Source of the DNA: a virus
Taxonomy: Duplodnaviria > Heunggongvirae > Uroviricota > Caudoviricetes
IMG/VR virus record: IMGVR_UViG_3300027628_000007
Length of the DNA: 64,000 bases
Strand: one strand, 5' to 3'
The notes below the pieces were generated by a model. It saw only the letters and a program-made list of their open reading frames with translations, was not told the origin of the DNA and made no database searches. The translations under genes and the position numbers were made by a program. The first letter of the stretch is position 1, and each line of letters opens with the position of its first letter. Shown here one piece after another: positions 3,117 through 58,653 of this stretch.

Positions 3117-4115
3117 TTAGTGTGCTAGAGTATCTGCTTCACGCAGTAACTCTAGTTTGTCAAACATATCTTTTCCTACTTGTTTCATAAGCTTGTCACG
3201 ATTAGCTCTTTCATCAAGTAAGTACATATGAAACTGAATCAGAGTTGTTGCTTGATGTATAAATGCGGTATTAAATCCTAGTCGTTTAAGGACATGCACT
3301 GCTAGTTGAGCAGAGACATGTTCATGACCAATGAAGTTTGCATATCTAGATGGCTCACCTTTACGATTCTTAAAGTTCTTACAGAAATGCTTACCTGTAT
3401 CATGGAGCATCGCAACCCACAACATAAGCTCTTTATCTTGACCATGATAGTTATTGAATACATAGTCGTAAACGTGATATGTATGACGGCTTACAGAGAA
3501 TGCGTGATACTTTGAATCTTGTGCCATATCTAAGATGTATATGAATATTTCTGGAATAACTCTTGCAAGTTCCTCCATGATTCTGTATCCCATGTTATTT
3601 AACATGACTTGCTTAGTTATGTATTCTCTTTGAGCTTCTGGGAAGTTCTTATCTACAAAGCTGTAATCAAACTCAATCTCATCCCAACCTTCACTAAAGA
3701 TAGGTACTTGAAGATTTTTGTACATCTTTTTAATCACATCATATGGTACAGTTCTTTCTCTCACATGATTGAATGTTACTGCTGTTTTGAATGGAGTTGT
3801 CATGTAAACAACTTTCTTATGTACGCCTTTAGGTAATTGTTGCAGTAATCCTTTTCGCTTCTTACGACTGATATTAGTAGCATCATAGATTACGCTTTGC
3901 CCATCTTTCAACGCTTTCTTTGTACGTTTCGCCATTTCTTGGAAAATCATTGCAGGGTCGGCTTGGTCATTAACATCTCCATGAATCTCTTGTCGAAGAT
4001 TGTCAGATGATAACCAAAGTGCATCATCCCCATTTTCATTTGCATATGTGGACTTCCCAGATGCAGGAAGACCCACTAGCATTGTAAATGTTGGTTTAAA
4101 GATTTCGATTTCCAT
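3117..4115 (-). CDS. bifunctional polynucleotide 5-prime kinase (P-loop) / HD-domain phosphoesterase (RNA/DNA end-healing enzyme)
   Basis: N-terminal Walker A GLPASGKST followed by an SSD catalytic Asp context, as in T4 Pnk-type kinases. C-terminal HD signature (H...HDTGKH...GHEH...D). Confidence 0.7.
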   Translation of the reverse strand: MEIEIFKPTFTMLVGLPASGKSTYANENGDDALWLSSDNLRQEIHGDVNDQADPAMIFQEMAKRTKKALKDGQSVIYDATNISRKKRKGLLQQLPKGVHKKVVYMTTPFKTAVTFNHVRERTVPYDVIKKMYKNLQVPIFSEGWDEIEFDYSFVDKNFPEAQREYITKQVMLNNMGYRIMEELARVIPEIFIYILDMAQDSKYHAFSVSRHTYHVYDYVFNNYHGQDKELMLWVAMLHDTGKHFCKNFKNRKGEPSRYANFIGHEHVSAQLAVHVLKRLGFNTAFIHQATTLIQFHMYLLDERANRDKLMKQVGKDMFDKLELLREADTLAH

Positions 4116-4171: not shown

Positions 4172-5449
4172 TTATTCTGTTGCTGATTCTTCTTCTTCAA
4201 TGTCAAGGACATCATCTGCTTTAATGATACCTTCTAAGACTTTGAAGTTAAATGACTTCTGTTTGAATGCAGAGAATTTCTCTCTGTTCTCAATACGTAC
4301 AATTACACCTTCACGTAAATGTGTTTTACCGATTGGGTCTGCACCATCTACATGAGCGTTTACACGTTTCATCAAGTCATCAGCAGTTGTAAACTTAAAT
4401 GAATCTAACTCTGGGCAAATCTTAACTCCCATTTGTTCACAACGAAGTTTAACTAAGTGCCAAGGGTACTCAACAACCTGTCCATCTTCGTTCGTCATTG
4501 TCATGCGGTATACATAAATATCGCTTTGACCTACTCCACAACCGTATGTAAATCGTGTCTTATCGCCATATGTCTTGATAAACTCTTTATCTTTCGTTTT
4601 CTTATTATCGCATTCTGGCATAATAAGTGTATCTTGGTTTACATATCCTACAACTTCATAGAATACTTCTTCACCTTTATGTAATTTACCGTCAAAGAAA
4701 TCATGCCATTGCTTTCTAAACTCGTTGCTACCGTAGTAACCGCCACCAAATTGCGTAGTGTTTAAAGTCACACGTCTAGTACCTGTTACATAATCCCAAA
4801 CTTTTGTTGGCTTAGTCTTGATGCCAATCTTATTTAAGAATTTAGCAAACTTTGATTTATGCTCTTTGACTGTGTGAGCAGTACGTTGAGATGTTCCATG
4901 AAGTTTTAAAGAGATTACACAGTCATCGCCTTCTTTGAAGCTACGAGTATTGTAAGCTAGTTGAGCTGTATCAATATGCTGTTCAAAGAATGGGTAATTA
5001 ACCACATCTTCTTTCTTTTGCTTCTCTTTGTTCTTGCCTTGTGGCATATCTTTTCGTGGTTTAGACTTTGGTACATACTTCTCACAGATTACCACACCTT
5101 TTAAGATATCAATTGTGTCACCCTCTTTAAGAGTATCAATTTTGACAAACTTTGCAAGAGATGTGATTGGCATGAATAAACCATCTGATTTCTCTCCACG
5201 TAAACGGATTGTAGTTACATGACGCTTTTCGTCATCTAAGTAACCGCCTTGTGTACGAAGTAATTTGTTTTCTTCCGCATATTCTAGACCTAATTTACCG
5301 TCTGTAGGGAAGTAAACACCTAAGTCTCCTTCTTTTACATCTAAGCTAACAATTACATCGTTACCGAATAGTTCTGCAACTTGTAATCTATCTGCATTAG
5401 AATGCTTTCGTAGTTTTTTAACAGTTGTAATATAAGCTTGGTAAGCCAT
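4172..5449 (-). CDS. RNA ligase, Rnl2-like nucleotidyltransferase domain with N-terminal OB-like domain
   Basis: Motif I KLHG (the KxHG form is typical of Rnl2/RNA-editing ligases), motif III FYEVVG, motif IV EGVIVR, motif V KQKSFNFK. The window already has a separate DNA ligase. Adjacent to the Pnk-HD gene. Confidence 0.7.
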   Translation of the reverse strand: MAYQAYITTVKKLRKHSNADRLQVAELFGNDVIVSLDVKEGDLGVYFPTDGKLGLEYAEENKLLRTQGGYLDDEKRHVTTIRLRGEKSDGLFMPITSLAKFVKIDTLKEGDTIDILKGVVICEKYVPKSKPRKDMPQGKNKEKQKKEDVVNYPFFEQHIDTAQLAYNTRSFKEGDDCVISLKLHGTSQRTAHTVKEHKSKFAKFLNKIGIKTKPTKVWDYVTGTRRVTLNTTQFGGGYYGSNEFRKQWHDFFDGKLHKGEEVFYEVVGYVNQDTLIMPECDNKKTKDKEFIKTYGDKTRFTYGCGVGQSDIYVYRMTMTNEDGQVVEYPWHLVKLRCEQMGVKICPELDSFKFTTADDLMKRVNAHVDGADPIGKTHLREGVIVRIENREKFSAFKQKSFNFKVLEGIIKADDVLDIEEEESATE

Positions 5450-5750: not shown

Positions 5751-6620
5751 CTAATCCAATAATTTTGATAAATCTACGACACCATATCCTAAGTTATAGC
5801 TGTGGTCATGATTACCCATATTCATAATTTTCTCTTTTACTTGTGCAGGTGTTAACTCAATACCTTGATTACGGTTGTGAGAAATAAGCAATGCGATTGC
5901 TCCTGCTACTAATGGTGAAGCCATAGATGTTCCAGACATCCTAGCATACTTGCCATCTTTAAATGTGCTTAATACATCAATTGCAGGTGCAGAGATATCT
6001 ACTTGTGGTGCTCTATTAGAGAATGGACAATGATTTAAATCTTTGTCAACTCCACCTACTGCAAATACTTCATCCATAAATGCAGGATAATCCACTTCTG
6101 GCAATCCCATATTTCCTACTGCACATACAATCTTAATTCCTTGTGCATGAGCTTCTTCTAATCGTTCTTGAAGTCGTACTGGAAGACCTCCACGAACGCC
6201 TAGACTCATACATAATACATCTACTTTGAAGTTGATAGCTAATGTAATTCCATCCATAACACTCGCCATACTGCCTTCGCCTTTTTCGTCTAATACTTTT
6301 GCAATATATAAATCAACATTAGGTGCAACGCCTGTCTTCGCACCTGCAATTAATCCTGCAACATGAGTTCCATGACCATACTCATCTGTGATATCATTTG
6401 TTTTTTCAAACATATTTATACCGTACTTGACTTTTCCTTTTAGGTCTGGATGGTTCTCATCCATTCCAGTATCAATCACCATAACTTTAACGCCTTCGCC
6501 TTTTGTTTTCTTCCAAGCTTCTTTGACGTTAATAGCTTTTAAACTCCAATCAAGCCCTTTGGGTAATTTATCCAATACTTCAATATTCTTAGTTTCATTT
6601 TGTGTCATCATATGTTGCAC
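5751..6620 (-). CDS. subtilisin-like serine protease (peptidase S8)
   Basis: Catalytic triad contexts VIDTGMD (Asp), HGTHVAG (His), GTSMASP (Ser). Confidence 0.9.
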   Translation of the reverse strand: MQHMMTQNETKNIEVLDKLPKGLDWSLKAINVKEAWKKTKGEGVKVMVIDTGMDENHPDLKGKVKYGINMFEKTNDITDEYGHGTHVAGLIAGAKTGVAPNVDLYIAKVLDEKGEGSMASVMDGITLAINFKVDVLCMSLGVRGGLPVRLQERLEEAHAQGIKIVCAVGNMGLPEVDYPAFMDEVFAVGGVDKDLNHCPFSNRAPQVDISAPAIDVLSTFKDGKYARMSGTSMASPLVAGAIALLISHNRNQGIELTPAQVKEKIMNMGNHDHSYNLGYGVVDLSKLLD

Positions 6621-6624
6621 ACTC

Positions 6625-6900
6625 CTATTTGCTTTCTTTGATTGTTACAGTTCCTTCCATAACTCCATATGTACTATCTTCTTTAAACTTATAAGTCTCT
6701 GCTTTATCTTGTTCTGTCATTGGACGTGTAAGATACCAAAGAGCAGATTCTTTCCATGTGATATTAACTAGCTTTTCACCTTTAGGGAGATTGACTGTGT
6801 AACTTCCACCAAAACTCTTCGCTCCTATTTGACATCCAGAAAGACCTACTAAACCTGCAATTGCTGTTAATCCGATTAAAAACTTTTTCATCATAATCAC
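6625..6900 (-). CDS. lipoprotein (signal peptide with lipobox LSGC)
   Basis: MIMMKKFLIGLTAIAGLVGLSGC: hydrophobic h-region followed by Cys. Confidence 0.7.
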   Translation of the reverse strand: MIMMKKFLIGLTAIAGLVGLSGCQIGAKSFGGSYTVNLPKGEKLVNITWKESALWYLTRPMTEQDKAETYKFKEDSTYGVMEGTVTIKESK

Positions 6901-7523
6901 TCCTTATCAGTATCTAGCGGTGCTAGTAATTTAAATTCACTCTTTAAACTATTGTAAATTGGTTGGAAGAATTTCTTAATTGTATCCCAATCCTTCATAG
7001 CCATAACACTTCCTAAGAAACGGTTTGCACATTCGTAATCTACGATTCTACCATGCTTTGCAATTTGAATCCCAAACATCAAGATTCTGATTGAATGAAA
7101 CATGCTCTTTTTGCCGATATAATCTTCACCAATCGCTAATTTCTTTTTACATTTAACAAAACTGTTAGAAGAAATCCCAGAGATATTTCTACGTAATGCT
7201 TCTAGATTTGGTTCAAAATGCTCACGATATTTACTATCTTCTTTTTGGAAGATACATTCTAGGTAGCTAATATGTTGCTCTTTAATCTTCTTAATAAACA
7301 GTGCTTCGCTTACTACGTGAATAGAGACATCATCACGCTCAAACGTATAATCAAGTTCTAGGTCATGACTGTCTGCAACAGCCATGAAATCATAATCTGA
7401 ATCCGCATTGTCAGTTCCGTAGACCCTAGAGCCATACGGATAGATTGCCAATAGTTTTTCATTAATGTTTCTTTTTGTTTCCCACATGTTATCACTCCTA
7501 TAGTTGACCCATTGCGTAGTCAT
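6897..7523 (-). CDS. minimal nucleotidyltransferase (Pol-beta superfamily, MNT-like)
   Basis: hGS...G...SDYDF motif (IYPYGSRVYGTDNADSDYDFMAV). Confidence 0.65.
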   Translation of the reverse strand: MTTQWVNYRSDNMWETKRNINEKLLAIYPYGSRVYGTDNADSDYDFMAVADSHDLELDYTFERDDVSIHVVSEALFIKKIKEQHISYLECIFQKEDSKYREHFEPNLEALRRNISGISSNSFVKCKKKLAIGEDYIGKKSMFHSIRILMFGIQIAKHGRIVDYECANRFLGSVMAMKDWDTIKKFFQPIYNSLKSEFKLLAPLDTDKE

Positions 7524-23537: not shown

Positions 23538-23567
23538 ATTATATCATTATCTTTAGCGTTTAGTCAA
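23538..23567 (-). promoter_or_regulatory. sigmaA-type promoter (TTGACT-18-TATAAT) upstream of topo II A subunit gene
   Basis: Family spacer ...AAAGATAATGA. Confidence 0.5.
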
Positions 23568-25553: not shown

Positions 25554-25582
25554 AGTATATCATTATAATTTGCTTCTGTCAA
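25554..25582 (-). promoter_or_regulatory. sigmaA-type promoter (TTGACA-17-TATACT) upstream of topo II B subunit gene
   Basis: agtata tcattataatttgcttc tgtcaa. Confidence 0.6.
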
Positions 25583-25583
25583 C

Positions 25584-26354
25584 CTATGCTACTAATTTAT
25601 TTTTAACTAATTGCATGATTAGGTTGTCGATATGTAATTTAAGCTCTTCATTTGGTTTCTGTGAGCGGTACTTATCTTTCAGATGTACGAATTGTGCATC
25701 GTGGATATGATTAACTAGACGTTCAAAGCTTTCTTGATTCCAGAAACCATATTTGATTTCATGCATAAAGAATACTTCTTCGCCTTCATATCGCAATGCT
25801 TTCTCTGGATTCTTAAATCCTAATGCTTCATACTTGATTGCAAAGTCTAACAAGCGATAAGCGTGCTGTGCTTGCTTTGTATCGAATCCAAATAGGTCTA
25901 CTAATACTTGTGTACCTTCTGTACCTTTAGGCAACAGCTTCATCTTTTGTTTAAATGTACCGCCAAGAGCATCAAATAGCTTTGGAAGGTTCATGTTAAA
26001 GATGTCATAACGTAAATCATAAAGCTCTTTTAATTCCTTGCTATCTTCAAGATACAGCTCTTTAGAGATTAAAGGCTCTAAGTAATTCAAGTTAGCCTTC
26101 CAGAACAAGTCTGGGAGCTTACGGATGTCGTGCACATCATAATCTGCATCTGCACCGATGATGCTTTCTGCAAACATCTTCTGCTTGTACAGCTCTTCAA
26201 ATGTAGGAGTTACAAATGCTTTGTAATCCTTGTCAGATGCAAGGATAATCTTGCCACTGATTTTCTTTTCACCTGTTGCTAGATTGTAATTGTTTGACCC
26301 TACTAATGCTTGTACTAATACTTCTCTTCCTAAGATTGTTTTCATGTTTTTCAT
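25584..26354 (-). CDS. hypothetical protein (256 aa)
   Basis: ORF track; own promoter copy upstream. Confidence 0.6.
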   Translation of the reverse strand: MKNMKTILGREVLVQALVGSNNYNLATGEKKISGKIILASDKDYKAFVTPTFEELYKQKMFAESIIGADADYDVHDIRKLPDLFWKANLNYLEPLISKELYLEDSKELKELYDLRYDIFNMNLPKLFDALGGTFKQKMKLLPKGTEGTQVLVDLFGFDTKQAQHAYRLLDFAIKYEALGFKNPEKALRYEGEEVFFMHEIKYGFWNQESFERLVNHIHDAQFVHLKDKYRSQKPNEELKLHIDNLIMQLVKNKLVA

Positions 26355-26374: not shown

Positions 26375-26403
26375 ATTATATCATTATCATTATCTATTGT
26401 CAA
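26375..26403 (-). promoter_or_regulatory. sigmaA-type promoter, perfect TTGACA-17-TATAAT
   Basis: attata tcattatcattatctat tgtcaa; immediately downstream of terminator 26413..26447. Confidence 0.7.
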
Positions 26404-26412
26404 CAGCCTGTT

Positions 26413-26447
26413 TCAAAAAAGTTAAGGAATGAATTAAATCATTCCTT
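26413..26447 (-). terminator. Rho-independent terminator (9-bp stem AAGGAATGA/TCATTCCTT, 6-nt loop, T6 tract on minus strand); bidirectional in form
   Basis: Read directly from sequence; stop codon of the upstream gene lies in the stem. Confidence 0.7.
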
Positions 26448-26923: not shown

Positions 26924-27421
26924 TTACACCTCATACTTTCTTAATAGTTTTACAATTTTGTCAAGATGTGCTTTCTTATGTACACTGTCTGCTTTCCATG
27001 CCATACCAGACTCCATAATCCAGTTTGCATCAATAGGATGCCAACGTACCCATTTGCTAAATGTTACATATGTATTTTCAGAATCCAAACCTGTGTGCTC
27101 TGCTAGTTTCATAATCTGTTCATCTGTCACAGACTCATGAAACATTACGCTGAATGATTCACCATCTTTATGACCGTAACAGCAGAATTTTGTTTTCAAT
27201 CCAATTTCGAAATTGATTACGTCTAGCATCTCAATCATTTCTGGGTCAATCTCATCATATGGAATACCATGAGCGTTGAAGCGATGACGTAACGCTTTCT
27301 CAATCGTACTCTCTTTCATATCGTGGAAGCAACCATGACAAAGATTAGCCTTATGTGCATTACTTCCTTTTGTTACCTTTTCATAAGTTTGACAATTACC
27401 GCAACCGATTTCTACTTTCAT
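26924..27421 (-). CDS. hypothetical zinc-finger protein (CGNC...CHGC)
   Basis: Two CxxC pairs near the N-terminus. Confidence 0.55.
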   Translation of the reverse strand: MKVEIGCGNCQTYEKVTKGSNAHKANLCHGCFHDMKESTIEKALRHRFNAHGIPYDEIDPEMIEMLDVINFEIGLKTKFCCYGHKDGESFSVMFHESVTDEQIMKLAEHTGLDSENTYVTFSKWVRWHPIDANWIMESGMAWKADSVHKKAHLDKIVKLLRKYEV

Positions 27422-28026
27422 TATGCTGTTTCCTCCTGTTTACGTAGTTCATCTCGTACTTCCATTAACACTTGACCTAATAGGTTCATGCCTTTCCACT
27501 TCTTAGGGTCTTCTACGTCTGGATGGTCTTTATGCATACCGATTCCCCAGATTCTATCAGAAGGGCTTGCTTCCACAAGCATCTTATTACCTGTTGCAAG
27601 AATACATTTTTTCAAGAATGGTACAGAGAATTTATCCATTAACACTTCTTTGTAGATTCTCTTACGATTCTTCTGCCAAACATCTTCCTTGAATGGAATG
27701 TCATTGCTACGACCTAATAGCTTACAGTAACTTGGTGTATCGGCTTCTAAAATATCTTTTGCAACGTCTGTCGCACCAAATAACATAGCTTTACGATACA
27801 TTACCGCCTGCTCTGACCATAAGAATCGTATGCCTTGATGCCTGAATGGTGAGAAGTTAAAGTTTGAGTACACGCTGTCACCCATCCAGAAGAAGATAAA
27901 CTTATCAGTTTCTCTTGCATTCTGTCCAAGACCTCTTTTAACTCTACCGATTTTCGCATCAGTTTCACGCTTTTGCTTCAAGAATCGTTCTTGGTCTGCT
28001 TTTGTTAATTTAGGTTTCTCTCTCAT
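27421..28026 (-). CDS. NADAR (YbiA/DUF1768) domain protein - ADP-ribose processing N-glycosidase
   Basis: Collinear match to E. coli YbiA: FFW..G..SNF...PF......F...E...M.KA.LF......IL....P...K.LGR.......W......EV...KF.....LL.TG...LVE.SP.D..WG.G. Confidence 0.8.
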   Translation of the reverse strand: MREKPKLTKADQERFLKQKRETDAKIGRVKRGLGQNARETDKFIFFWMGDSVYSNFNFSPFRHQGIRFLWSEQAVMYRKAMLFGATDVAKDILEADTPSYCKLLGRSNDIPFKEDVWQKNRKRIYKEVLMDKFSVPFLKKCILATGNKMLVEASPSDRIWGIGMHKDHPDVEDPKKWKGMNLLGQVLMEVRDELRKQEETA

Positions 28027-28027
28027 G

Positions 28028-28495
28028 TTAACCTCCTAGTAATGATAATAGTCTAGTAATGTCTTTTGGTTGATGCCCATCATATTCTGGTGCAAATTCT
28101 AATTCTTTCACTTTAAATAAATCATAATCTTCTTCTCTGTAATGATATGAATACTGACCTTCTGGTGTATCGACTCCAACAATAAATGACCCATCAAACA
28201 TTGTGCCATCTGAATGTTGCCAAGACTTCCATGCTTTGTCTTTGTATGTATGACAGATTACTAAGAATAACATCATGCGATGATAATACAGTTCATCAAA
28301 AGTGTGATAGCCATCGCTAAACTCTCCAACTCTCATAACTAAATCAGCAGGAATATGATTATGTGTTCCGTCTAAAGTAACGGTTGAAACATCTTTTCTA
28401 GACCCAAAATTTTCAACATCTGTCTTAGTTATCTTATATATTGTTGGTAAATCTGATTTGAAAATAACCTTGTTGCCTGCTTTAAATTTACTCAT
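28028..28495 (-). CDS. hypothetical protein
   Basis: ORF track. Confidence 0.6.
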   Translation of the reverse strand: MSKFKAGNKVIFKSDLPTIYKITKTDVENFGSRKDVSTVTLDGTHNHIPADLVMRVGEFSDGYHTFDELYYHRMMLFLVICHTYKDKAWKSWQHSDGTMFDGSFIVGVDTPEGQYSYHYREEDYDLFKVKELEFAPEYDGHQPKDITRLLSLLGG

Positions 28496-29334: not shown

Positions 29335-29706
29335 CTACACTCCTTTATATGTATCTAAGATATCTTGAATGTTATGTAAGACACACTCAACATCTGTGAT
29401 AGAGCCATAGATTGAGCCACCGCTTGATGTAACATCAAACTTGAAATCTTTCACATCAGTGATAGGTACAACTGGCGTTGTATTTAAGATTAGTGTACCC
29501 TTTTTAAGCACTTCACCATCTCTACCTGTGTAATCTTCTTTCAGCTCTCTCAAACCAGTGCAACCTCTGACAATCTTTGTTTTCGAGTTAGGAATAGTGT
29601 AGTAGAATCCACCAGTACGCTTGTACTTATATACGTTGACAAGCACCCCTTCCTTTACTCTCCAAACATCTGCAATTGCATGTGATTTAATTTTTTCCAT
29701 CTGCAA
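29335..29706 (-). CDS. hypothetical protein
   Basis: ORF track. Confidence 0.6.
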   Translation of the reverse strand: MQMEKIKSHAIADVWRVKEGVLVNVYKYKRTGGFYYTIPNSKTKIVRGCTGLRELKEDYTGRDGEVLKKGTLILNTTPVVPITDVKDFKFDVTSSGGSIYGSITDVECVLHNIQDILDTYKGV

Positions 29707-29923
29707 ATCTCCATTCGTTAGATTTTAGATTTTCTGTTCGGATAAACATTGGCGTACCGTTGTTCATAAACTCAATAATCATCAGTTTACCTTTTAGATA
29801 ATCTGGGCATTCACCAATGAATGTTGACTCTGCACTTACAACTTCATATTGACCACCGTAAGCGAATGAATCACCTGTATACTCAATGAAATCTCCTTCT
29901 TGCACTTTTGAGAAATCAATCAT
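29687..29923 (-). CDS. hypothetical protein
   Basis: ORF track; perfect promoter upstream. Confidence 0.6.
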   Translation of the reverse strand: MIDFSKVQEGDFIEYTGDSFAYGGQYEVVSAESTFIGECPDYLKGKLMIIEFMNNGTPMFIRTENLKSNEWRFADGKN

Positions 29924-29943: not shown

Positions 29944-29972
29944 ATTATATAATTATCATTTGTTTTTGTCAA
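29944..29972 (-). promoter_or_regulatory. sigmaA-type promoter, perfect TTGACA-17-TATAAT
   Basis: attata taattatcatttgtttt tgtcaa. Confidence 0.7.
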
Positions 29973-34409: not shown

Positions 34410-34868
34410 TTAGAGTTTGTATAATGTTACTTCATAACCGTCAAAAGCTTTGTCTATTAACTTATAAACCTCTGTCCAATCCGCTCCACCTCTATCACTA
34501 CCAATTAGGTATGGAAGTGCAACAGATAAGGCATATGATTCTGCAAAATCTCTTAAATCCTTCATAGCTTTATAGAGAGCCATTGTCTTTGTGTATTGAT
34601 TCCCATCTCCACCATATGTAAGCTGACCAAAAAGATTTGCAACCACCTTGCCATCCATCAGTACAAGATGACATTTCCCTAACAATTCTGTCCTAGAGTT
34701 CTCTTTCACAAAGTTTGTCACATATTCAACATAAGTTGTATAGGCTTCTGGGAAGGATTGGCGTATGCATTTCGCAACGCCACTTCCCATAACACCCATC
34801 GCATTCACTTGATGACCAATGACATCCTCACTGGCTTCCATTAAATCTCCATTAACAATCTTAATCAC
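34410..34868 (-). CDS. macrodomain protein, DarG/TARG1-like (ADP-ribosyl hydrolase)
   Basis: N-terminal IVNGDLMEASEDVIGHQVNAMGVMGSGVAKCIRQSFP follows the GD...aH.vN..G..G.GvA pattern of DarG/TARG1-type macrodomains. Confidence 0.7.
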   Translation of the reverse strand: MIKIVNGDLMEASEDVIGHQVNAMGVMGSGVAKCIRQSFPEAYTTYVEYVTNFVKENSRTELLGKCHLVLMDGKVVANLFGQLTYGGDGNQYTKTMALYKAMKDLRDFAESYALSVALPYLIGSDRGGADWTEVYKLIDKAFDGYEVTLYKL

Positions 34869-35902: not shown

Positions 35903-36111
35903 TTAACATCATCCTTTTCTTTCTCTTTTTTCTCTCTTCTACGATTCTTCCAACCTTCAAACTTATGGAAGCTCTTAGGATGGATTGTCTCCCAGAATAA
36001 CCCAACTAATCCAAGGGCTACTCGTAATAATGCTAGAATAATAATAACTGCAATCATCCATCCTACTAGTTTTGCAAGCATCCACAATGTTGTTAAGACT
36101 GCTGTTGTCAT
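35899..36111 (-). CDS. small membrane protein with basic C-terminus
   Basis: TM helices then KNRRREKKEKEKDDVK. Confidence 0.55.
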   Translation of the reverse strand: MTTAVLTTLWMLAKLVGWMIAVIIILALLRVALGLVGLFWETIHPKSFHKFEGWKNRRREKKEKEKDDVK

Positions 36112-36872
36112 TTAAGTGTTCCTCCTTTTGTGATTATCTTAATGTTTTCCATCACTTCTTCCATATCAATTTGATAATCAAACATACCAATTACTTCTTG
36201 GGCTGTTCGAATACCATGTAAGTATTCCTTAATCTCTGCAATCTGTCTCTTATGCTCTGCAACAAATTCATGATGCTGTTTAATCTTAATCAAGTGTGGC
36301 ATAATAGTTGTCTTGGCAGAATGAAAGAATCGTGCATGTTCTGGATATCTTTTACGACATGCTTTGAAGAATGGCAGGAAGAATTTCTCTGTTTCCAATG
36401 CCTGTCTCAATTCTTTCTCTGGCGTTGCATCTTTTAATGTGCCAAAATTATTCTTTCTATCTACTGTTTTAATTTTAGCCATTCGGACATTTTGCAGTAT
36501 GATGTCTAAGTACGCCTGCATATTCTCTTCTTTCTTGTAGTCGATGTTTGGCAACTTTGTTACTCCCATTACTGTATCAGCAACCTCTTGACCAAACAGA
36601 CTTTTAACAGCTTCATAGTTGATGTCTGGGACATCTTCGATTGCATCATGCAGTATACATGCGGTCAAAGTTACTTCATCGGTTTCACCATGATTAATTA
36701 AATCCTGTGTTGCATCTACCAAGTGATAGTAATAGTGACGACCATCATGTCGTTTATATCCGTTATCAGCGTTCATAACTGATATCATCCAATTAAGAGC
36801 TTTTAACGCTTCTTTACAACCCATCTCTGCTAAATCCATTTGCAACTGTACTACACGACTTTCTTTCGCCAT
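36108..36872 (-). CDS. RelA/SpoT-family HD hydrolase (small alarmone hydrolase, Mesh1-like)
   Basis: HD-domain motifs RHDGRHYYYHL..., ILHDAIEDV, and FGQEVADTVMGVTKL, as in the SpoT (p)ppGpp hydrolase domain. No synthetase domain. Confidence 0.8.
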   Translation of the reverse strand: MAKESRVVQLQMDLAEMGCKEALKALNWMISVMNADNGYKRHDGRHYYYHLVDATQDLINHGETDEVTLTACILHDAIEDVPDINYEAVKSLFGQEVADTVMGVTKLPNIDYKKEENMQAYLDIILQNVRMAKIKTVDRKNNFGTLKDATPEKELRQALETEKFFLPFFKACRKRYPEHARFFHSAKTTIMPHLIKIKQHHEFVAEHKRQIAEIKEYLHGIRTAQEVIGMFDYQIDMEEVMENIKIITKGGTLK

Positions 36873-56363: not shown

Positions 56364-56392
56364 AATATACCATTATCTTTTCTCTATGTCAA
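56364..56392 (-). promoter_or_regulatory. sigmaA-type promoter (TTGACA-17-TATATT) at end of nadR
   Basis: Family spacer. Confidence 0.55.
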
Positions 56393-57412
56393 CAAGTTAT
56401 CGACATAATTTATTGCTTTTGTAATTCTTTCGTTGTAATTGCCTTTAATCGTTATGTATTGGACACCCATGTATCTTAACATATACTTTAAATCATCATT
56501 GTTCTGCTCACGCACATGTTGCTCACCGAATGTCCTAGTGCCATCGTCAACCCATTTTACATCTGGCTCTAGGAAAATCCATAGGTCATACTTTTGATTG
56601 TTTGCAATACGTGTTAGAAGTGCATCTCGCTCATTTAAATATGCTTTTAAATAGTATTGCGTAACAATCGCTTCTGTGTCAACAAAGAGCACTTTGTTAG
56701 CATTCTTTAAAGCATTAAATTCATCTACCTTATGTTGGTATGCAATGAGCTGATAATCTTCTGCCATTGTAATGTCTTTACATCCACCTAATTCCTCATA
56801 GAATGTGCGACCATATTCTTCTACGTAATTAGTATTATACAATGTTGCTAGATTTTTGACAAGTGTTGATTTGCCACAAGATTCTGTTCCTACAATAACT
56901 ACTTTTTTAACATAATATCGTCTTACTACTTCTGGTAGAAGCTCCCAATTTTTATAGACACCTTCTGTACGAAGCTTTGTAGCGGATATTGTATACTTTT
57001 CACGATTCGCATCGACTACGACATGTTCTGCATCTGGGTATAACACATTGAAAAACTCTGTGTAAGCATGTTCGGAAGAGAATACGTGAGTGATAGGTTC
57101 ACCCACAGCTTTCTTAATCCCTTCCGCACCTTGCTTCCAACTCTCAATCTTGCCTGTATTCTCTTCGTATACAGCGTGTACATGTACATGGGGCATATCC
57201 TTTGTAATTTCCGTCCACCATCTTACACGTTGTTTATGGTCAACATGTGGAAGGAAACTATCTTTACTAAGCACGTTCTTCTCATAATTCTCATCATATG
57301 AAACTATTACATGTAGCTCATCAACCATTGTTGATGCCATTGTCATTGCAAACACATGACCCATATGTATTGGATAAAACTTTCCACCTAAAAATCCTAC
57401 TGTTTTTGACAT
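56384..57412 (-). CDS. nadR: NadR-like bifunctional NMN adenylyltransferase / ribosylnicotinamide kinase
   Basis: N-terminal GGKFYPIHMGHV (HxGH nucleotidyltransferase, near-identical to the NadR NMNAT motif GKFYPLHTGH); C-terminal Walker A GTESCGKSTL (RNK domain). Confidence 0.85.
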   Translation of the reverse strand: MSKTVGFLGGKFYPIHMGHVFAMTMASTMVDELHVIVSYDENYEKNVLSKDSFLPHVDHKQRVRWWTEITKDMPHVHVHAVYEENTGKIESWKQGAEGIKKAVGEPITHVFSSEHAYTEFFNVLYPDAEHVVVDANREKYTISATKLRTEGVYKNWELLPEVVRRYYVKKVVIVGTESCGKSTLVKNLATLYNTNYVEEYGRTFYEELGGCKDITMAEDYQLIAYQHKVDEFNALKNANKVLFVDTEAIVTQYYLKAYLNERDALLTRIANNQKYDLWIFLEPDVKWVDDGTRTFGEQHVREQNNDDLKYMLRYMGVQYITIKGNYNERITKAINYVDNLLT

Positions 57413-57912
57413 TTCTCTTCCCTCTTTCTTTTATCTTCATGCATTTTTCTAGTATTATCTGCTAAAGTTAACCATTGACAATTGCTAGGCTCATAATCTC
57501 CATCTGCATCAATTCTGTCAATAGACAATCCTTCCTCATATCCATTTTCTATAGCCCATTTGTAAAATGGTTCAAATTTCTGCCATTCATCGCAAACCTT
57601 AATTCCCCTGCCACCATATCGTTCATATCCTGTTATGGTAGGAGTGCTACATCGACCTTTCATTGTAGCCCATAGCTTATAGATTTTAGTCCCATCCATA
57701 CCATGTTTCTTATTTTGTTTACCTATCTTGCTTAGATTTTCTTTTCTTAGGCAACCGCAAGATTGTTGTTTCCCTGTCCTTACATTTCTATATGCAACAT
57801 CCTTTTCGTTACCGCAATCGCACTTGACTCGTACATATCGTTCTTTCTTTCTAACATCTAAAATCTCTATGACAGTTAATCTATTGAATCTGTCACCAAT
57901 TTTTGCTCCCAA
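57397..57912 (-). CDS. homing-endonuclease-like (HNH/AP2-associated) phage protein
   Basis: N-terminal GDRFNRLTVIE...CDCGN...SCGC and C-terminal GLSIDRIDADGDYEPSNCQWLT motifs common in phage HNH/AP2-type HEG proteins. Confidence 0.45.
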   Translation of the reverse strand: MGAKIGDRFNRLTVIEILDVRKKERYVRVKCDCGNEKDVAYRNVRTGKQQSCGCLRKENLSKIGKQNKKHGMDGTKIYKLWATMKGRCSTPTITGYERYGGRGIKVCDEWQKFEPFYKWAIENGYEEGLSIDRIDADGDYEPSNCQWLTLADNTRKMHEDKRKREEKCQKQ

Positions 57913-58653
57913 TTACGCCACCTCATTTTGTTCTTTCGCATTTTTCGACCATTTGATGTAACCATAGATACTGTTGCATAAGTACGCACACCACATAACT
58001 AATACTGTAACATTTCCTCCATCATGCATGAAAGCGTTAAACCATAGAATGATAGTTAAAGTGTTTACTGCAATCCATAACAACCATTGTTCTGCATATC
58101 GTTTAAGCATTAAAAGTTGAGCTGTAATTGATAATGTTACTGCGAATCCATCAATACCTGCTTGCTTACTGCCAATCATATGTAAGAATACACCGTACAA
58201 GATTCCAACCGTTAAAACTGTTAATGCTACGTATAACCAACCTTTTTTTGTTAACTTCTTAGCTTTTACTACTGTATCATTTTCTGTTACTGACTTATTC
58301 TTGCTCCAAACATAGAATCCAATAAATTGCATTGGGAAGTATAAGAAAGCATTTAGCATAAACTCACCATATAGCTGTGCACTGTAAGCTATGTAAGCGT
58401 ATAACGCTGTGTTGATTGCCCCAAAGAAGTAGTTTCCTATTTTTCCTTTGGCTACGAGAACTACGCACAACATACCAGTTAGAGAAGATGCTAGTCCGAT
58501 TAATGTATCATCGAATGCAAAGTACATATAGATAATAAGTGCTGTGAATGATGTTAACCATGTTAATTCGAATGCTGACCAACCTTTTAATAGTGTTTTC
58601 ATAATAATTTCCACCTTTACGTTATTTTTTAAAAAACATGAATATAATTTCAA
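57913..58653 (-). CDS. pnuC: PnuC nicotinamide riboside transporter
   Basis: About 245 aa with 7-8 TM helices and Trp-rich motifs (YFPMQFIGFYVWSKN) typical of PnuC; same operon as nadR. Confidence 0.75.
   Translation of the reverse strand: MKLYSCFLKNNVKVEIIMKTLLKGWSAFELTWLTSFTALIIYMYFAFDDTLIGLASSLTGMLCVVLVAKGKIGNYFFGAINTALYAYIAYSAQLYGEFMLNAFLYFPMQFIGFYVWSKNKSVTENDTVVKAKKLTKKGWLYVALTVLTVGILYGVFLHMIGSKQAGIDGFAVTLSITAQLLMLKRYAEQWLLWIAVNTLTIILWFNAFMHDGGNVTVLVMWCAYLCNSIYGYIKWSKNAKEQNEVA

What the first reader, a model, noticed from the sequence alone, without database searches (positions are those of the whole stretch)
27421..28026. Phage-encoded NADAR domain protein: candidate reversal of guanine ADP-ribosylation (anti-DarT1)
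The protein aligns collinearly with E. coli YbiA (NADAR/DUF1768) across the conserved core (FFW..G..SNF...PF, E...M.KA.LF, K.LGR, LL.TG...LVE.SP.D..WG.G). NADAR enzymes are established hydrolases of ADP-ribose linked to guanine bases, the modification installed by DarT1 toxins of DarTG defence systems. A free NADAR gene in a phage early region is therefore a strong candidate anti-DarTG counter-defence. It could alternatively recycle phage-made ADP-ribosylation.
Basis: partly seen in the sequence, partly recalled or inferred. Interest (0 to 1): 0.7.

Follow-up and report, generated by a model that had tools for sequence, protein, structure and literature searches.

The report
Stand-alone NADAR hydrolase in Bacillus phage
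A Bacillus cereus-group phage carries a well-conserved NADAR enzyme that most likely strips ADP-ribose off guanine bases to undo a host DarT1-type attack; this counter-defence was already shown for other phage NADARs in 2024, so the gene is a new member of a known kind.

Summary
Window 27421-28026 (minus strand) is a 201-aa ORF with a strong NADAR domain: Pfam PF08719 E=3e-39, AlphaFold pLDDT 94, best fold match the ADP-ribose-bound Phytophthora NADAR 8BAU. All eight ADP-ribose-contacting residues are kept.

The window is a Kirov/Tsamsa-like Bacillus siphovirus, and relatives already annotate this gene as "NADAR family protein".

The anti-DarTG1 idea is plausible but not new. Johannesman et al. 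(2024) showed that T4 AdfN and two other phage NADARs neutralise DarTG1. This protein is 33% identical over its full length to one of them (Bas60-type). It is not of the DarG1 or AdfN type.

DarT1-NADAR pairs occur in B. cereus-group bacteria. The phage also carries a DarG-like macrodomain gene.

Counter-evidence: about half of the chromosomal homologues sampled sit in PnuC-NadR-NrtR-NADAR-PARG clusters, and the phage carries NAD+ salvage genes. A role in ADP-ribose/NAD+ metabolism therefore remains a real rival.

No ADP-ribosyltransferase was detected nearby.

Verdict: a new member of a known kind, function inferred and not tested. Interest 0.3.

The parts
27421..28026 (-). NADAR gene, 201 aa, stop TAA at 27423-27421
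   Evidence: ORF. PF08719 E=3.2e-39. AF2 pLDDT 93.9. Foldseek best hit 8BAU at 3.6e-11. dN/dS 0.069 against Kirov.
27442..27900 (-). NADAR catalytic domain (residues ~43-195). Predicted ADPr-contact/catalytic residues: E72, K79, R106, W117, R121, E152, D157, W160.
   Evidence: The phmmer alignment to 8BAU was mapped onto the residue list in PMC11543638 with a constant offset of 2. E72, K79, W117, E152, D157 and W160 are invariant, and R106 nearly so, in 53 homologues.
27901..28026 (-). N-terminal 42-aa basic extension (14 K/R, 7 D/E), predicted as a single helix over residues 9-30. Absent from most homologues.
   Evidence: Secondary structure and pLDDT of 73-85. phrog_31626 match over residues 2-31. 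Full-length only in the Kirov orthologue, with partial matches reaching residue 26 in PBC2 and residue 19 in a Metabacillus MAG contig. dN/dS 0.071.
28032..28036 (-). Shine-Dalgarno GGAGG, 5 nt upstream of the ATG, inside the 3' end of the upstream gene
   Evidence: Read from the sequence.
29944..29972 (-). Consensus sigma-A/sigma-70 promoter (TTGACA-17-TATAAT, 12/12) heading the transcription unit that contains the NADAR gene
   Evidence: It lies in the 53-nt gap before the ORF 29687-29923. Consensus match only; function is inferred.
26424..26447 (-). Terminator-like hairpin with a T-rich tail closing the unit. It is followed by a second 12/12 promoter at 26403..26375.
28028..28495 (-). Upstream operon gene: WDGH-domain protein (155 aa), 1 nt from the NADAR start
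26924..27421 (-). Downstream operon gene (165 aa, N-terminal CxxC...CxxC, phrog_25201). Its ATG overlaps the NADAR stop (TAATG), which suggests translational coupling.
   Evidence: No Pfam or PDB match. Conserved in Kirov and PBC2 but not in Tsamsa or MrDarsey.

Best explanation
The gene encodes an active stand-alone NADAR ADP-ribosyl-glycohydrolase. It is apparently transcribed from a host-type consensus promoter, within a long leftward block of replication and nucleotide-metabolism genes.

Proposed mechanism:
- The conserved pocket (R106, W117, R121, D157, W160) binds the ADP-ribose moiety.
- E72, K79 and E152 cleave the N-glycosidic bond between ribose C1'' and the exocyclic N2 of guanine. 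This restores an unmodified base and releases free ADP-ribose.

Proposed role: during infection it removes ADP-ribose that a host DarT1-type toxin (DarTG1) puts on guanines of phage ssDNA, and possibly RNA. Replication can then proceed. The protein would act as an orphan-antitoxin-like counter-defence, as shown for T4 AdfN and the Bas32/Bas60 phage NADARs. The basic N-terminal helix may add nucleic-acid affinity.

Shown here: fold, residues, family placement, purifying selection, operon layout, and presence of DarTG1 in the host clade. Inferred: enzymatic activity, substrate, timing, and the biological role.
For: 1. NADAR domain and fold, with all eight ADPr-contacting residues of 8BAU conserved (residue list from PMC11543638).
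2. Every NADAR assayed so far removes guanine-ADPr from DNA and RNA in vitro (PMC11125620; PMC11833690).
3. The closest experimentally tested relative is the Bas60-type phage NADAR, represented here by the Bas62 copy. It is 33% identical over the full length at E=3e-23 and shares the insertion before the last helix. That protein neutralises DarT1 toxicity and rescues phages from DarTG1 but not DarTG2 (PMC11257639).
4. The host clade has the target. A B. mycoides plasmid carries a DarT 38.5% identical to E. coli C7 DarT1, next to a protein 56% identical to C7 DarG1. DarT1-associated NADAR antitoxins are also recorded in B. wiedmannii and many Bacillaceae. DarTG is found in 11.2% of B. cereus-group assemblies (PMC11811056).
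5. The same phage encodes a DarG-like macrodomain. This fits a two-enzyme kit against guanine- and thymine-directed DarTs.
6. The gene is orphan, with no DarT homologue in the window or in the Kirov regions fetched. It sits behind a 12/12 consensus promoter and is under strong purifying selection.
Against: - No activity or phenotype data exist for this protein or any close relative. Identity to the tested Bas60-type enzyme is only 33%.
- In vitro activity does not predict in vivo rescue. YbiA and T4 NADAR failed to rescue DarT1 toxicity in uninfected E. coli.
- The protein is not of the DarG1 or AdfN type. It has Glu152 where DarG1 has Asp and AdfN has His, and it shows no significant similarity to either.
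- In 45 of the 80 chromosomal loci sampled (mostly 40-45% identical) an NrtR-like gene lies next to the NADAR gene, usually directly upstream, within PnuC-NadR-NrtR-NADAR-PARG clusters rather than TA loci.
- DarT1 was found on only one Bacillus plasmid in PLSDB. The 11.2% DarTG figure does not separate type 1 from type 2.
Confidence: 0.5

Rival explanations
1. The enzyme is an ADP-ribose/NAD+ metabolic helper rather than a DNA repair-type antitoxin. It would cleave N-glycosidic ADP-ribose conjugates of small molecules, such as ADPr-nucleotides or ADPr-derived immune signals or toxins. Alternatively it would recycle ADPr from any conjugate. Free ADPr would then feed the phage's own NAD+ reconstitution genes and counter NAD+-depleting or ADPr-signalling defences.
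For: - In 45 of 80 bacterial loci an NrtR-like gene flanks the NADAR gene (upstream in 45, also downstream in 3). NadR, PnuC and microbial PARG genes flank it in 27, 25 and 22 loci, mostly co-directional.
- The window encodes an HTH-less NadR and a PnuC, a NARP3-type pair (PMC13464706).
- Contigs carrying an identical ClpP encode a NAMPT-type enzyme just left of the window. Kirov annotates a PRPP-synthetase-like gene there.
Against: - In the phage the NADAR gene is about 28 kb from NadR/PnuC and in a different operon.
- In the papers read here, the only small-molecule NADAR substrates reported are riboflavin intermediates.
- NADARs do not cleave phosphate-linked ADPr such as KptA/Tpt1 products.
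- The closest tested homologue works against DarT1.
- The two roles are not mutually exclusive.
Confidence: 0.25
2. The enzyme is a YbiA-type N-glycosidase that destroys reactive riboflavin-biosynthesis intermediates (metabolite damage pre-emption).
For: TIGR02464 'riboflavin biosynthesis intermediates N-glycosidase' scores 141 bits against a cut-off of 73.7. The protein has Glu at the position that defines the YbiA family.
Against: - The Bas60-type NADAR, shown to be anti-DarT1, also passes TIGR02464 at 109.7 bits, so the label does not discriminate.
- No riboflavin genes appear in the Kirov annotation that covers the window and both flanks.
- In the NJ tree YbiA falls across the midpoint root from the query.
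- There is no obvious benefit to a lytic phage.
Confidence: 0.05
3. The enzyme reverses or limits ADP-ribosylation made by the phage's own ADP-ribosyltransferase, either as self-immunity or to recycle the modification.
For: ART-NADAR pairs exist in bacteria (DarT1-NADAR, YarT-YbiA). T4-like phages express NADAR with their ARTs.
Against: - No ART is annotated in Kirov across 76-146 kb.
- tblastn with DarT1 from E. coli and B. mycoides, and with part of T4 Alt, finds nothing at E<=1 in the window or the Kirov regions.
- The adjacent WDGH protein models confidently but matches no ART fold.
- Not every small ORF was profile-scanned, so a divergent ART cannot be fully excluded.
Confidence: 0.05
4. 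The enzyme is a component of a phage-borne defence or superinfection-exclusion system.
For: Matches to PADLOC candidate PDC-M42C (4.6e-33) and weakly to NCBIfam 'NADAR family anti-phage protein' (49.8 bits against a cut-off of 240).
Against: - YbiA and the Bas NADARs hit the same PADLOC model, so it only reports the fold.
- The NCBIfam score is far below its cut-off.
- None of the five neighbouring gene products scanned matched any PADLOC model.
Confidence: 0.03

Closest known systems
NADAR of Bas60/61/62 coliphages (NADAR-Bas60; Johannesman, Carlson & LeRoux 2024, PMC11257639)
   Same: Both are orphan, phage-encoded, single-domain NADARs of PF08719 type. They are 33% identical over the full domain at E=3e-23. 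They share an MRxTDKF/YxFF N-terminus, the insertion before the C-terminal helix, and a Glu at the YbiA-type position. Both pass TIGR02464 and PDC-M42C. Bas60-type neutralises DarT1 and rescues phages from DarTG1.
   Different: - The host is Gram-positive and the virus a siphovirus, rather than a coliphage myovirus.
- This protein has an extra 42-aa basic N-terminal helix.
- It lacks the Bas62 insertion after the first strands.
- It is untested.
AdfN (T4 gp30.3) anti-DarT factor NADAR
   Same: Phage orphan NADAR with the same proposed role. The catalytic Glu/Lys pair is seven residues apart in both.
   Different: There is no significant sequence similarity (E=0.17). AdfN has His where this protein has Glu152. 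AdfN works best in the context of T-even phage infection and clusters with DarG1.
DarG1 / DarT1-associated NADAR antitoxin (E. coli C7; PF22397, 'BC4488 family')
   Same: Same superfamily fold and same chemistry (guanine-ADPr hydrolysis). Both have a basic N-terminal extension proposed to bind ssDNA.
   Different: - It belongs to a different Pfam/NCBIfam family.
- It has a catalytic Asp instead of Glu.
- Its beta-beta-alpha extension is unrelated to the single helix here.
- It is always next to DarT1, whereas this gene has no toxin partner.
Phytophthora nicotianae NADAR (PDB 8BAU) and E. coli YbiA (PDB 2B3W)
   Same: These are the best structural matches: TM 0.69/0.73 with 34% identity, and TM 0.67/0.79 with 24% identity. 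All ADPr-contact residues are shared with 8BAU.
   Different: Both are cellular stand-alone enzymes of unknown or housekeeping role. YbiA does not rescue DarT1 toxicity in cells.
Bacterial NrtR-linked NADARs (PnuC-NadR-NrtR-NADAR-PARG clusters of Paenibacillus, Lysinibacillus and others)
   Same: 40-45% identical. They fall on the same side of the midpoint-rooted NJ tree, though that split is poorly supported.
   Different: They are chromosomal, with an NrtR-like gene directly upstream (possible co-regulation is inferred). The phage copy is unlinked to NrtR and sits in a phage operon.

Membership tests
NADAR superfamily (Pfam PF08719 / YbiA-like fold) | Profile match above the curated threshold | tested here: met
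   135.2 bits against 35.1, E=3.2e-39, profile positions 10-163 of 163.
NADAR superfamily (Pfam PF08719 / YbiA-like fold) | Alpha-helical core flanked by small beta-sheets, superposable on solved NADARs | tested here: met
   AF2 pLDDT 93.9. Foldseek 8BAU E=3.6e-11 and 2B3W 1.8e-8; the next hit has E>3.
NADAR superfamily (Pfam PF08719 / YbiA-like fold) | Conserved ADPr-binding/catalytic residues (PnNADAR E43, K50, R79, W89, R93, E125, D130, W133) | tested here: met
   Query E72, K79, R106, W117, R121, E152, D157, W160 by alignment. Most are invariant in 53 homologues.
NADAR superfamily (Pfam PF08719 / YbiA-like fold) | Hydrolysis of guanine-linked ADP-ribose | not testable with these tools
   Needs an enzyme assay.
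DarG1 / DarT1-associated NADAR antitoxin (PF22397) | Encoded next to a DarT1 ADP-ribosyltransferase | tested here: not met
   No DarT homologue in the window or the Kirov regions at E<=1. The neighbours are WDGH and unknown proteins.
DarG1 / DarT1-associated NADAR antitoxin (PF22397) | Sequence membership, and catalytic Asp replacing the YbiA-type Glu | tested here: not met
   Only PF08719 is hit. No NCBIfam DarT1-associated model is hit. BLASTP against C7 DarG1 is not significant. Glu152 is retained.
AdfN (T4 gp30.3-like phage NADARs) | His replacing the conserved Glu, and clustering with gp30.3 | tested here: not met
   Glu152. BLASTP against gp30.3 gives E=0.17.
AdfN (T4 gp30.3-like phage NADARs) | Phage-encoded orphan NADAR that counters DarTG1 | tested here: inconclusive
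   Orphan and phage-encoded: yes. Countering DarTG1 was not testable.
Bas60-type stand-alone phage/bacterial NADARs (non-YbiA, non-DarG1 group of PMC11257639) | Closer to NADAR-Bas60 than to YbiA, Bas32, AdfN or DarG1 | tested here: met
   Bit scores are 80.5 (Bas62), 52.8 (YbiA) and 51.2 (Bas33), with T4 and DarG1 not significant. The NJ tree puts YbiA and Bas33 across the midpoint root, but deep nodes are unresolved.
YbiA/COG3236 riboflavin-intermediate N-glycosidase (TIGR02464) | HMM score above the cut-off | tested here: met
   141.2 against 73.7. The anti-DarT1 Bas60-type NADAR also passes at 109.7, so the test does not discriminate.
YbiA/COG3236 riboflavin-intermediate N-glycosidase (TIGR02464) | Fusion to, or linkage with, riboflavin biosynthesis genes (RibA/RibD) | tested here: not met
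   Single domain. No rib genes in the Kirov annotation covering the window and both flanks.
NrtR-linked NADAR (PnuC-NadR-NrtR-NADAR-PARG cluster) | NrtR immediately upstream in a co-directional cluster | tested here: not met
   True for 45 of 80 bacterial loci. In the phage the gene is in a different operon. NadR and PnuC are present about 28 kb away.

The most novel reading that the evidence does not exclude
The NADAR is not simply an anti-DarT1 orphan antitoxin. Instead it is one arm of an ADP-ribose-centred counter-defence network captured from a Firmicute gene cluster (PnuC-NadR-NrtR-NADAR-PARG).

In this reading it strips N-glycosidic ADP-ribose from guanines of nucleic acids or nucleotides, or from ADPr-derived immune molecules. 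The released ADPr is then rebuilt into NAD+ by the phage's own NAMPT/Prs-like and NadR/PnuC genes. The acquired basic N-terminal helix retargets a housekeeping enzyme to DNA.

This would also imply an unrecognised 'ADP-ribosylation damage response' gene cluster in bacteria.
Probability: 0.15. Interest if true: 0.55.

Novelty: new member of a known kind. Interest (0 to 1): 0.3.

Why it matters
If confirmed, this would extend NADAR-based anti-DarTG1 counter-defence from coliphages to large temperate-type siphoviruses of the Bacillus cereus/anthracis group. DarTG is over-represented in those hosts.

The phage would then combine three things in one genome:
- a guanine-ADPr eraser (the NADAR);
- a thymine-ADPr eraser (the DarG-like macrodomain);
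- NAD+ reconstitution genes.

That combination is relevant to phage host range and to phage use against B. cereus and B. anthracis. It does not change the concept, which was published in 2024.

Tried and rejected
- **WDGH-NADAR adjacency as a functional link.** It is seen only in Tsamsa-like siphoviruses. It is absent in Hobo and Staphylococcus kayviruses, and no WDGH match was found in the pW2 locus fetched. I treat it as lineage synteny.
- **C-terminal ~85-aa extension of Tsamsavirus NADARs.** No Pfam hit and no homologue in the window. Uninformative.
- **TIGR02464 and PADLOC PDC-M42C labels.** Both are non-discriminating, because tested anti-DarT1 NADARs and YbiA hit them too.
- **Literature search for 'WDGH'.** It returned only irrelevant papers.
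- **tblastn of the phage macrodomain against plasmids, to gauge DarTG2 in Bacillus.** The 25 rows shown were stand-alone macro and SLOG fusions with no DarG annotation; 78 more were not listed. Uninformative.
- **NJ phylogeny.** It resolves the Bacillales phage/chromosomal subclade (99% bootstrap) but not the deep branching between the Bas60-type, NrtR-linked and Staphylococcus-phage groups.
- **BC4486/BC4488 in B. cereus ATCC 14579.** A B. mycoides plasmid and database names served instead.
Full report
**1. The observation**

Window 27421..28026 holds a 201-aa ORF on the minus strand. A GGAGG ribosome-binding site lies 5 nt before the ATG.

The ORF matches several profiles and solved structures:
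- Pfam NADAR (PF08719) at E=3.2e-39 across almost the whole profile.
- PHROG 1017 at 2e-53.
- TIGR02464 at 141 bits.
- The solved NADARs 8BAU (E=1e-14) and E. coli YbiA 2B3W (E=2e-7).

BLASTP against K-12 YbiA gives 28% identity over 158 residues, collinear, E=4e-13. Only the strand was missing, and the quoted motifs have a few spacing slips.

**2. Where it sits**

The window is a Kirov/Tsamsa-like Bacillus cereus-group siphovirus. The nearest deposited genome is Bacillus phage Kirov (87% nucleotide identity). Its orthologue Kirov_134 is 91% identical and already annotated "NADAR family protein".

The exact protein occurs only on unnamed metagenome or assembly contigs, the longest 172 kb.

All genes in the window run leftward. 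A 12/12 consensus sigma-A promoter at 29972..29944 and a hairpin terminator at 26447..26424 bracket an eight-ORF unit. The unit contains three small ORFs, a 204-aa protein, a WDGH-domain protein, the NADAR, a 165-aa Zn-ribbon-like protein and a 160-aa protein. The 165-aa protein's ATG overlaps the NADAR stop (TAATG).

DNA gyrase, ribonucleotide reductase, primase/helicase and similar genes flank the unit. "Early or middle, host-polymerase transcribed" is therefore a reasonable inference, but it is untested.

dN/dS against Kirov is 0.069 overall. It is 0.071 for the N-terminal extension and 0.054 for the domain. The whole ORF, extension included, is a constrained coding sequence.

**3. Anatomy**

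An AlphaFold2 model built on 53 homologues has mean pLDDT 93.9. Foldseek against the PDB returns only two significant hits:
- P. nicotianae NADAR bound to ADP-ribose (8BAU): E=3.6e-11, TM 0.69/0.73.
- YbiA (2B3W): E=1.8e-8.

Schuller et al. list the ADPr contacts of the Phytophthora enzyme as E43, K50, R79, W89, R93, E125, D130 and W133 (PMC11543638). With a constant offset of 2 in the PDB chain, the phmmer alignment maps these to E72, K79, R106, W117, R121, E152, D157 and W160. All are conserved, and most are invariant across the 53 homologues.

The residue at the E125 position defines the subfamily. It is Glu in the YbiA family, Asp in DarT1-associated NADARs and His in T4-like phage NADARs. 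Here it is Glu.

Residues 1-42 form an extra basic segment (14 K/R, 7 D/E) modelled as one helix. The full extension is shared only with Kirov. Partial matches reach residue 26 in PBC2 and residue 19 in a Metabacillus MAG contig. Tsamsavirus orthologues lack it and instead carry an unrelated ~85-aa C-terminal extension.

**4. Family placement**

tblastn finds homologues in 863 phage records, including Staphylococcus kayviruses, Listeria, Enterococcus, Vequintavirinae-like and T5-like phages.

I fetched the experimentally studied proteins for comparison:
- T4 gp30.3 (AdfN).
- The Bas33 copy of NADAR-Bas32.
- The Bas62 copy of NADAR-Bas60.
- E. coli C7 DarG1 and DarT1, located with a primer from the paper.
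- K-12 YbiA.

The query is closest to the Bas60-type enzyme: 33% identity, E=3e-23, full length, with a shared insertion before the last helix. YbiA follows at 52.8 bits and the Bas32-type at 51.2 bits. It has no significant similarity to AdfN or DarG1.

An NJ tree puts the query in a 99%-supported subclade with Bacillus phages and stand-alone chromosomal genes of Bacillus haynesii, Hazenella and Lysinibacillus. This subclade lies on the same side of the midpoint root as the Bas60-type, Staphylococcus-phage and many bacterial NADARs, and opposite YbiA and the Bas32-type. Deep nodes are unresolved.

The TIGR02464 "riboflavin N-glycosidase" label is also passed by the Bas60-type enzyme (109.7 bits). 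The PADLOC PDC-M42C model is hit by all of these proteins. Neither label discriminates function.

**5. What is already known**

- NADARs hydrolyse guanine-linked ADP-ribose and act as antitoxins of DarT1 (PMC11543638).
- All subtypes tested, including YbiA and T4 gp30.3, are active in vitro, but YbiA and T4 NADAR did not rescue DarT1 toxicity in cells (PMC11125620).
[quoted passage not shown] They also showed that the unrelated phage NADARs of Bas32 and Bas60 neutralise DarT1 and rescue DarTG1-sensitive phages, but not DarTG2-sensitive ones (PMC11257639).
- NADARs also remove guanine-ADPr from RNA but not phosphate-end ADPr (PMC11833690). Some remove cytidine-ADPr (PMC12945103).

**6. Host side**

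tblastn with E. coli C7 DarT1 against PLSDB finds one Bacillus record, a 9-kb B. mycoides plasmid. The gene next to its DarT is listed there as "hypothetical protein". It is 56% identical to C7 DarG1 at E=4e-83.

The protein database names it, and many relatives, "DarT1-associated NADAR antitoxin" (PF22397). The relatives come from B. wiedmannii, B. hominis, Priestia, Peribacillus, Paenibacillus and others.

DarTG, with types not separated, is in 11.2% of B. cereus-group assemblies and is over-represented relative to Bacillota (PMC11811056). The proposed target therefore exists in the host clade, although type 1 looks uncommon on sequenced plasmids.

**7. Companion genes**

- **Macrodomain protein.** The window encodes a 152-aa macrodomain protein at 34410..34868. 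Its best matches are DarG: PADLOC DarG at 1.6e-15 over the macro part, NCBIfam antitoxin_DarG at 1e-14, and the PDB DarG macrodomains 5M31, 5M3E and 5M3I. This makes it a candidate thymine-ADPr eraser.
- **NAD+ salvage.** The window encodes an HTH-less NadR and a PnuC at 56384..58653. This gene pair was recently described as NARP3 in enterobacterial phages (PMC13464706). Contigs with an identical ClpP carry a NAMPT-type gene just left of the window. Kirov annotates a PRPP-synthetase-like gene there.
- **No ART.** None is annotated in Kirov. DarT and Alt queries find nothing. The adjacent WDGH protein does not have an ART fold.

**8. Counter-signal**

In the 80 bacterial loci fetched for homologues (mostly 40-45% identical), I clustered the neighbouring ORFs. 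This shows a recurrent co-directional cluster, PnuC-NadR-NrtR-NADAR-(microbial PARG). NrtR flanks the NADAR in 45 loci, NadR in 27, PnuC in 25 and PARG in 22. Pfam confirmed the identities.

About half of the chromosomal homologues sampled therefore sit next to NAD+-salvage and ADP-ribose-related genes, not in toxin-antitoxin loci. The closest chromosomal homologues (58-65% identical) are stand-alone among housekeeping genes.

This keeps open a role in ADPr/NAD+ metabolism, or a broader "remove ADPr and rebuild NAD+" function. It does not exclude the anti-DarT1 role.

**9. Verdict**

- The biochemical assignment, an N-glycosidic ADP-ribosyl hydrolase, is very likely (about 0.8).
- The specific biological role as an anti-DarTG1 factor is the best single explanation (about 0.5).
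- The ADPr/NAD+ metabolic role is the main rival (about 0.25).
- The riboflavin, own-ART and defence-component readings are unlikely.

The gene is a new, untested member of a known kind. Interest is modest at 0.3. What adds value is the combination in one Bacillus phage of a NADAR, a DarG-like macrodomain and NAD+ reconstitution genes, together with the lineage-specific basic N-terminal helix.

Noticed in passing
window 34410-34868 (-): A 152-aa stand-alone macrodomain protein whose best matches are DarG antitoxin macrodomains: PADLOC DarG 1.6e-15, NCBIfam antitoxin_DarG 1e-14, PDB 5M31/5M3E/5M3I. It is a candidate orphan anti-DarT2 (thymine-ADPr) factor, analogous to the chimallivirus DarG2-like protein.
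   Followed up: partly
window 56384-57412 (-) and 57913-58653 (-): An HTH-less NadR-like gene (NMN adenylyltransferase plus ribosylnicotinamide kinase) lies near a PnuC transporter gene, with one 171-aa ORF of no Pfam match between them. This is the NARP3-type NAD+ reconstitution pair, described in 2026 mainly for Salmonella and Escherichia phages. Here it is in a Bacillus siphovirus.
   Followed up: partly
L096 11208-12944 and L097 7855-9591 (contigs carrying an identical ClpP, just left of the window start); Kirov_87/Kirov_90: A 578-aa NAMPT_N+NAPRTase enzyme and a ~293-aa protein that Kirov annotates as PRPP synthetase. This is a possible NARP1 (Namat+Adps) or NARP2 component. It lies outside the window and was not verified.
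   Followed up: no
L020, L025, L032, L040, L062, L066, L075, L083 and others (around position 6000): A recurrent bacterial cluster, PnuC-NadR-NrtR-NADAR-(microbial PARG), in Paenibacillus, Lysinibacillus and relatives. NrtR flanks the NADAR in 45 of 80 loci. This suggests, but does not show, co-regulation of de-ADP-ribosylation with NAD+ salvage.
   Followed up: partly
window 28028-28495 (-): The WDGH-domain protein has an SH3/Tudor-like N-terminal barrel plus a ~95-aa domain that is about 70% identical across more than 1500 phage and bacterial proteins. Invariant His/Asp/Cys residues are D61, H64, E68, H72, C81, H94, D96, H118, D139 and H141. There is no informative PDB fold match. It is probably a metal-binding module of unknown function.
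   Followed up: partly
L002 3268-4014 and L004 2689-3432 (MrDarsey gp109, Tsamsa gp137); proteins P0003-P0007: Tsamsavirus NADARs are fused to a conserved ~85-aa C-terminal domain with no Pfam match and no counterpart in this window. Kirov and this phage instead have the N-terminal basic helix. These look like alternative accessory modules on the same enzyme.
   Followed up: partly
window 3117-4115, 4172-5449, 6897-7523, 25584-26354 (all -): An RNA-repair-type gene set: polynucleotide kinase with an HD phosphatase domain, an RNA ligase, and two RlaP/Pol-beta-like nucleotidyltransferases. One of the nucleotidyltransferases is in the transcription unit immediately downstream of the NADAR operon.
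   Followed up: no
window 36108-36872 (-): An HD_4 (RelA/SpoT hydrolase-type) protein. Kirov annotates it as a SpoT-like (p)ppGpp synthase/hydrolase. It is a possible alarmone-degrading counter-defence.
   Followed up: no
L090 5130-5867 (B. mycoides plasmid NZ_CP136377.1): The DarG1-type NADAR antitoxin next to DarT is listed as 'hypothetical protein' in the plasmid table. The DarT is generically named 'thymidine ADP-ribosyltransferase' although it is DarT1-like (guanine type).
   Followed up: yes
window 29972..29944, 26403..26375, 25582..25554, 23567..23538 (-): A series of perfect or near-perfect sigma-A consensus promoters (two at 12/12, two at 11/12; three with an extended -10 TG), positioned at or just ahead of gene starts. 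This suggests the gene block is read by unmodified host RNA polymerase.
   Followed up: no
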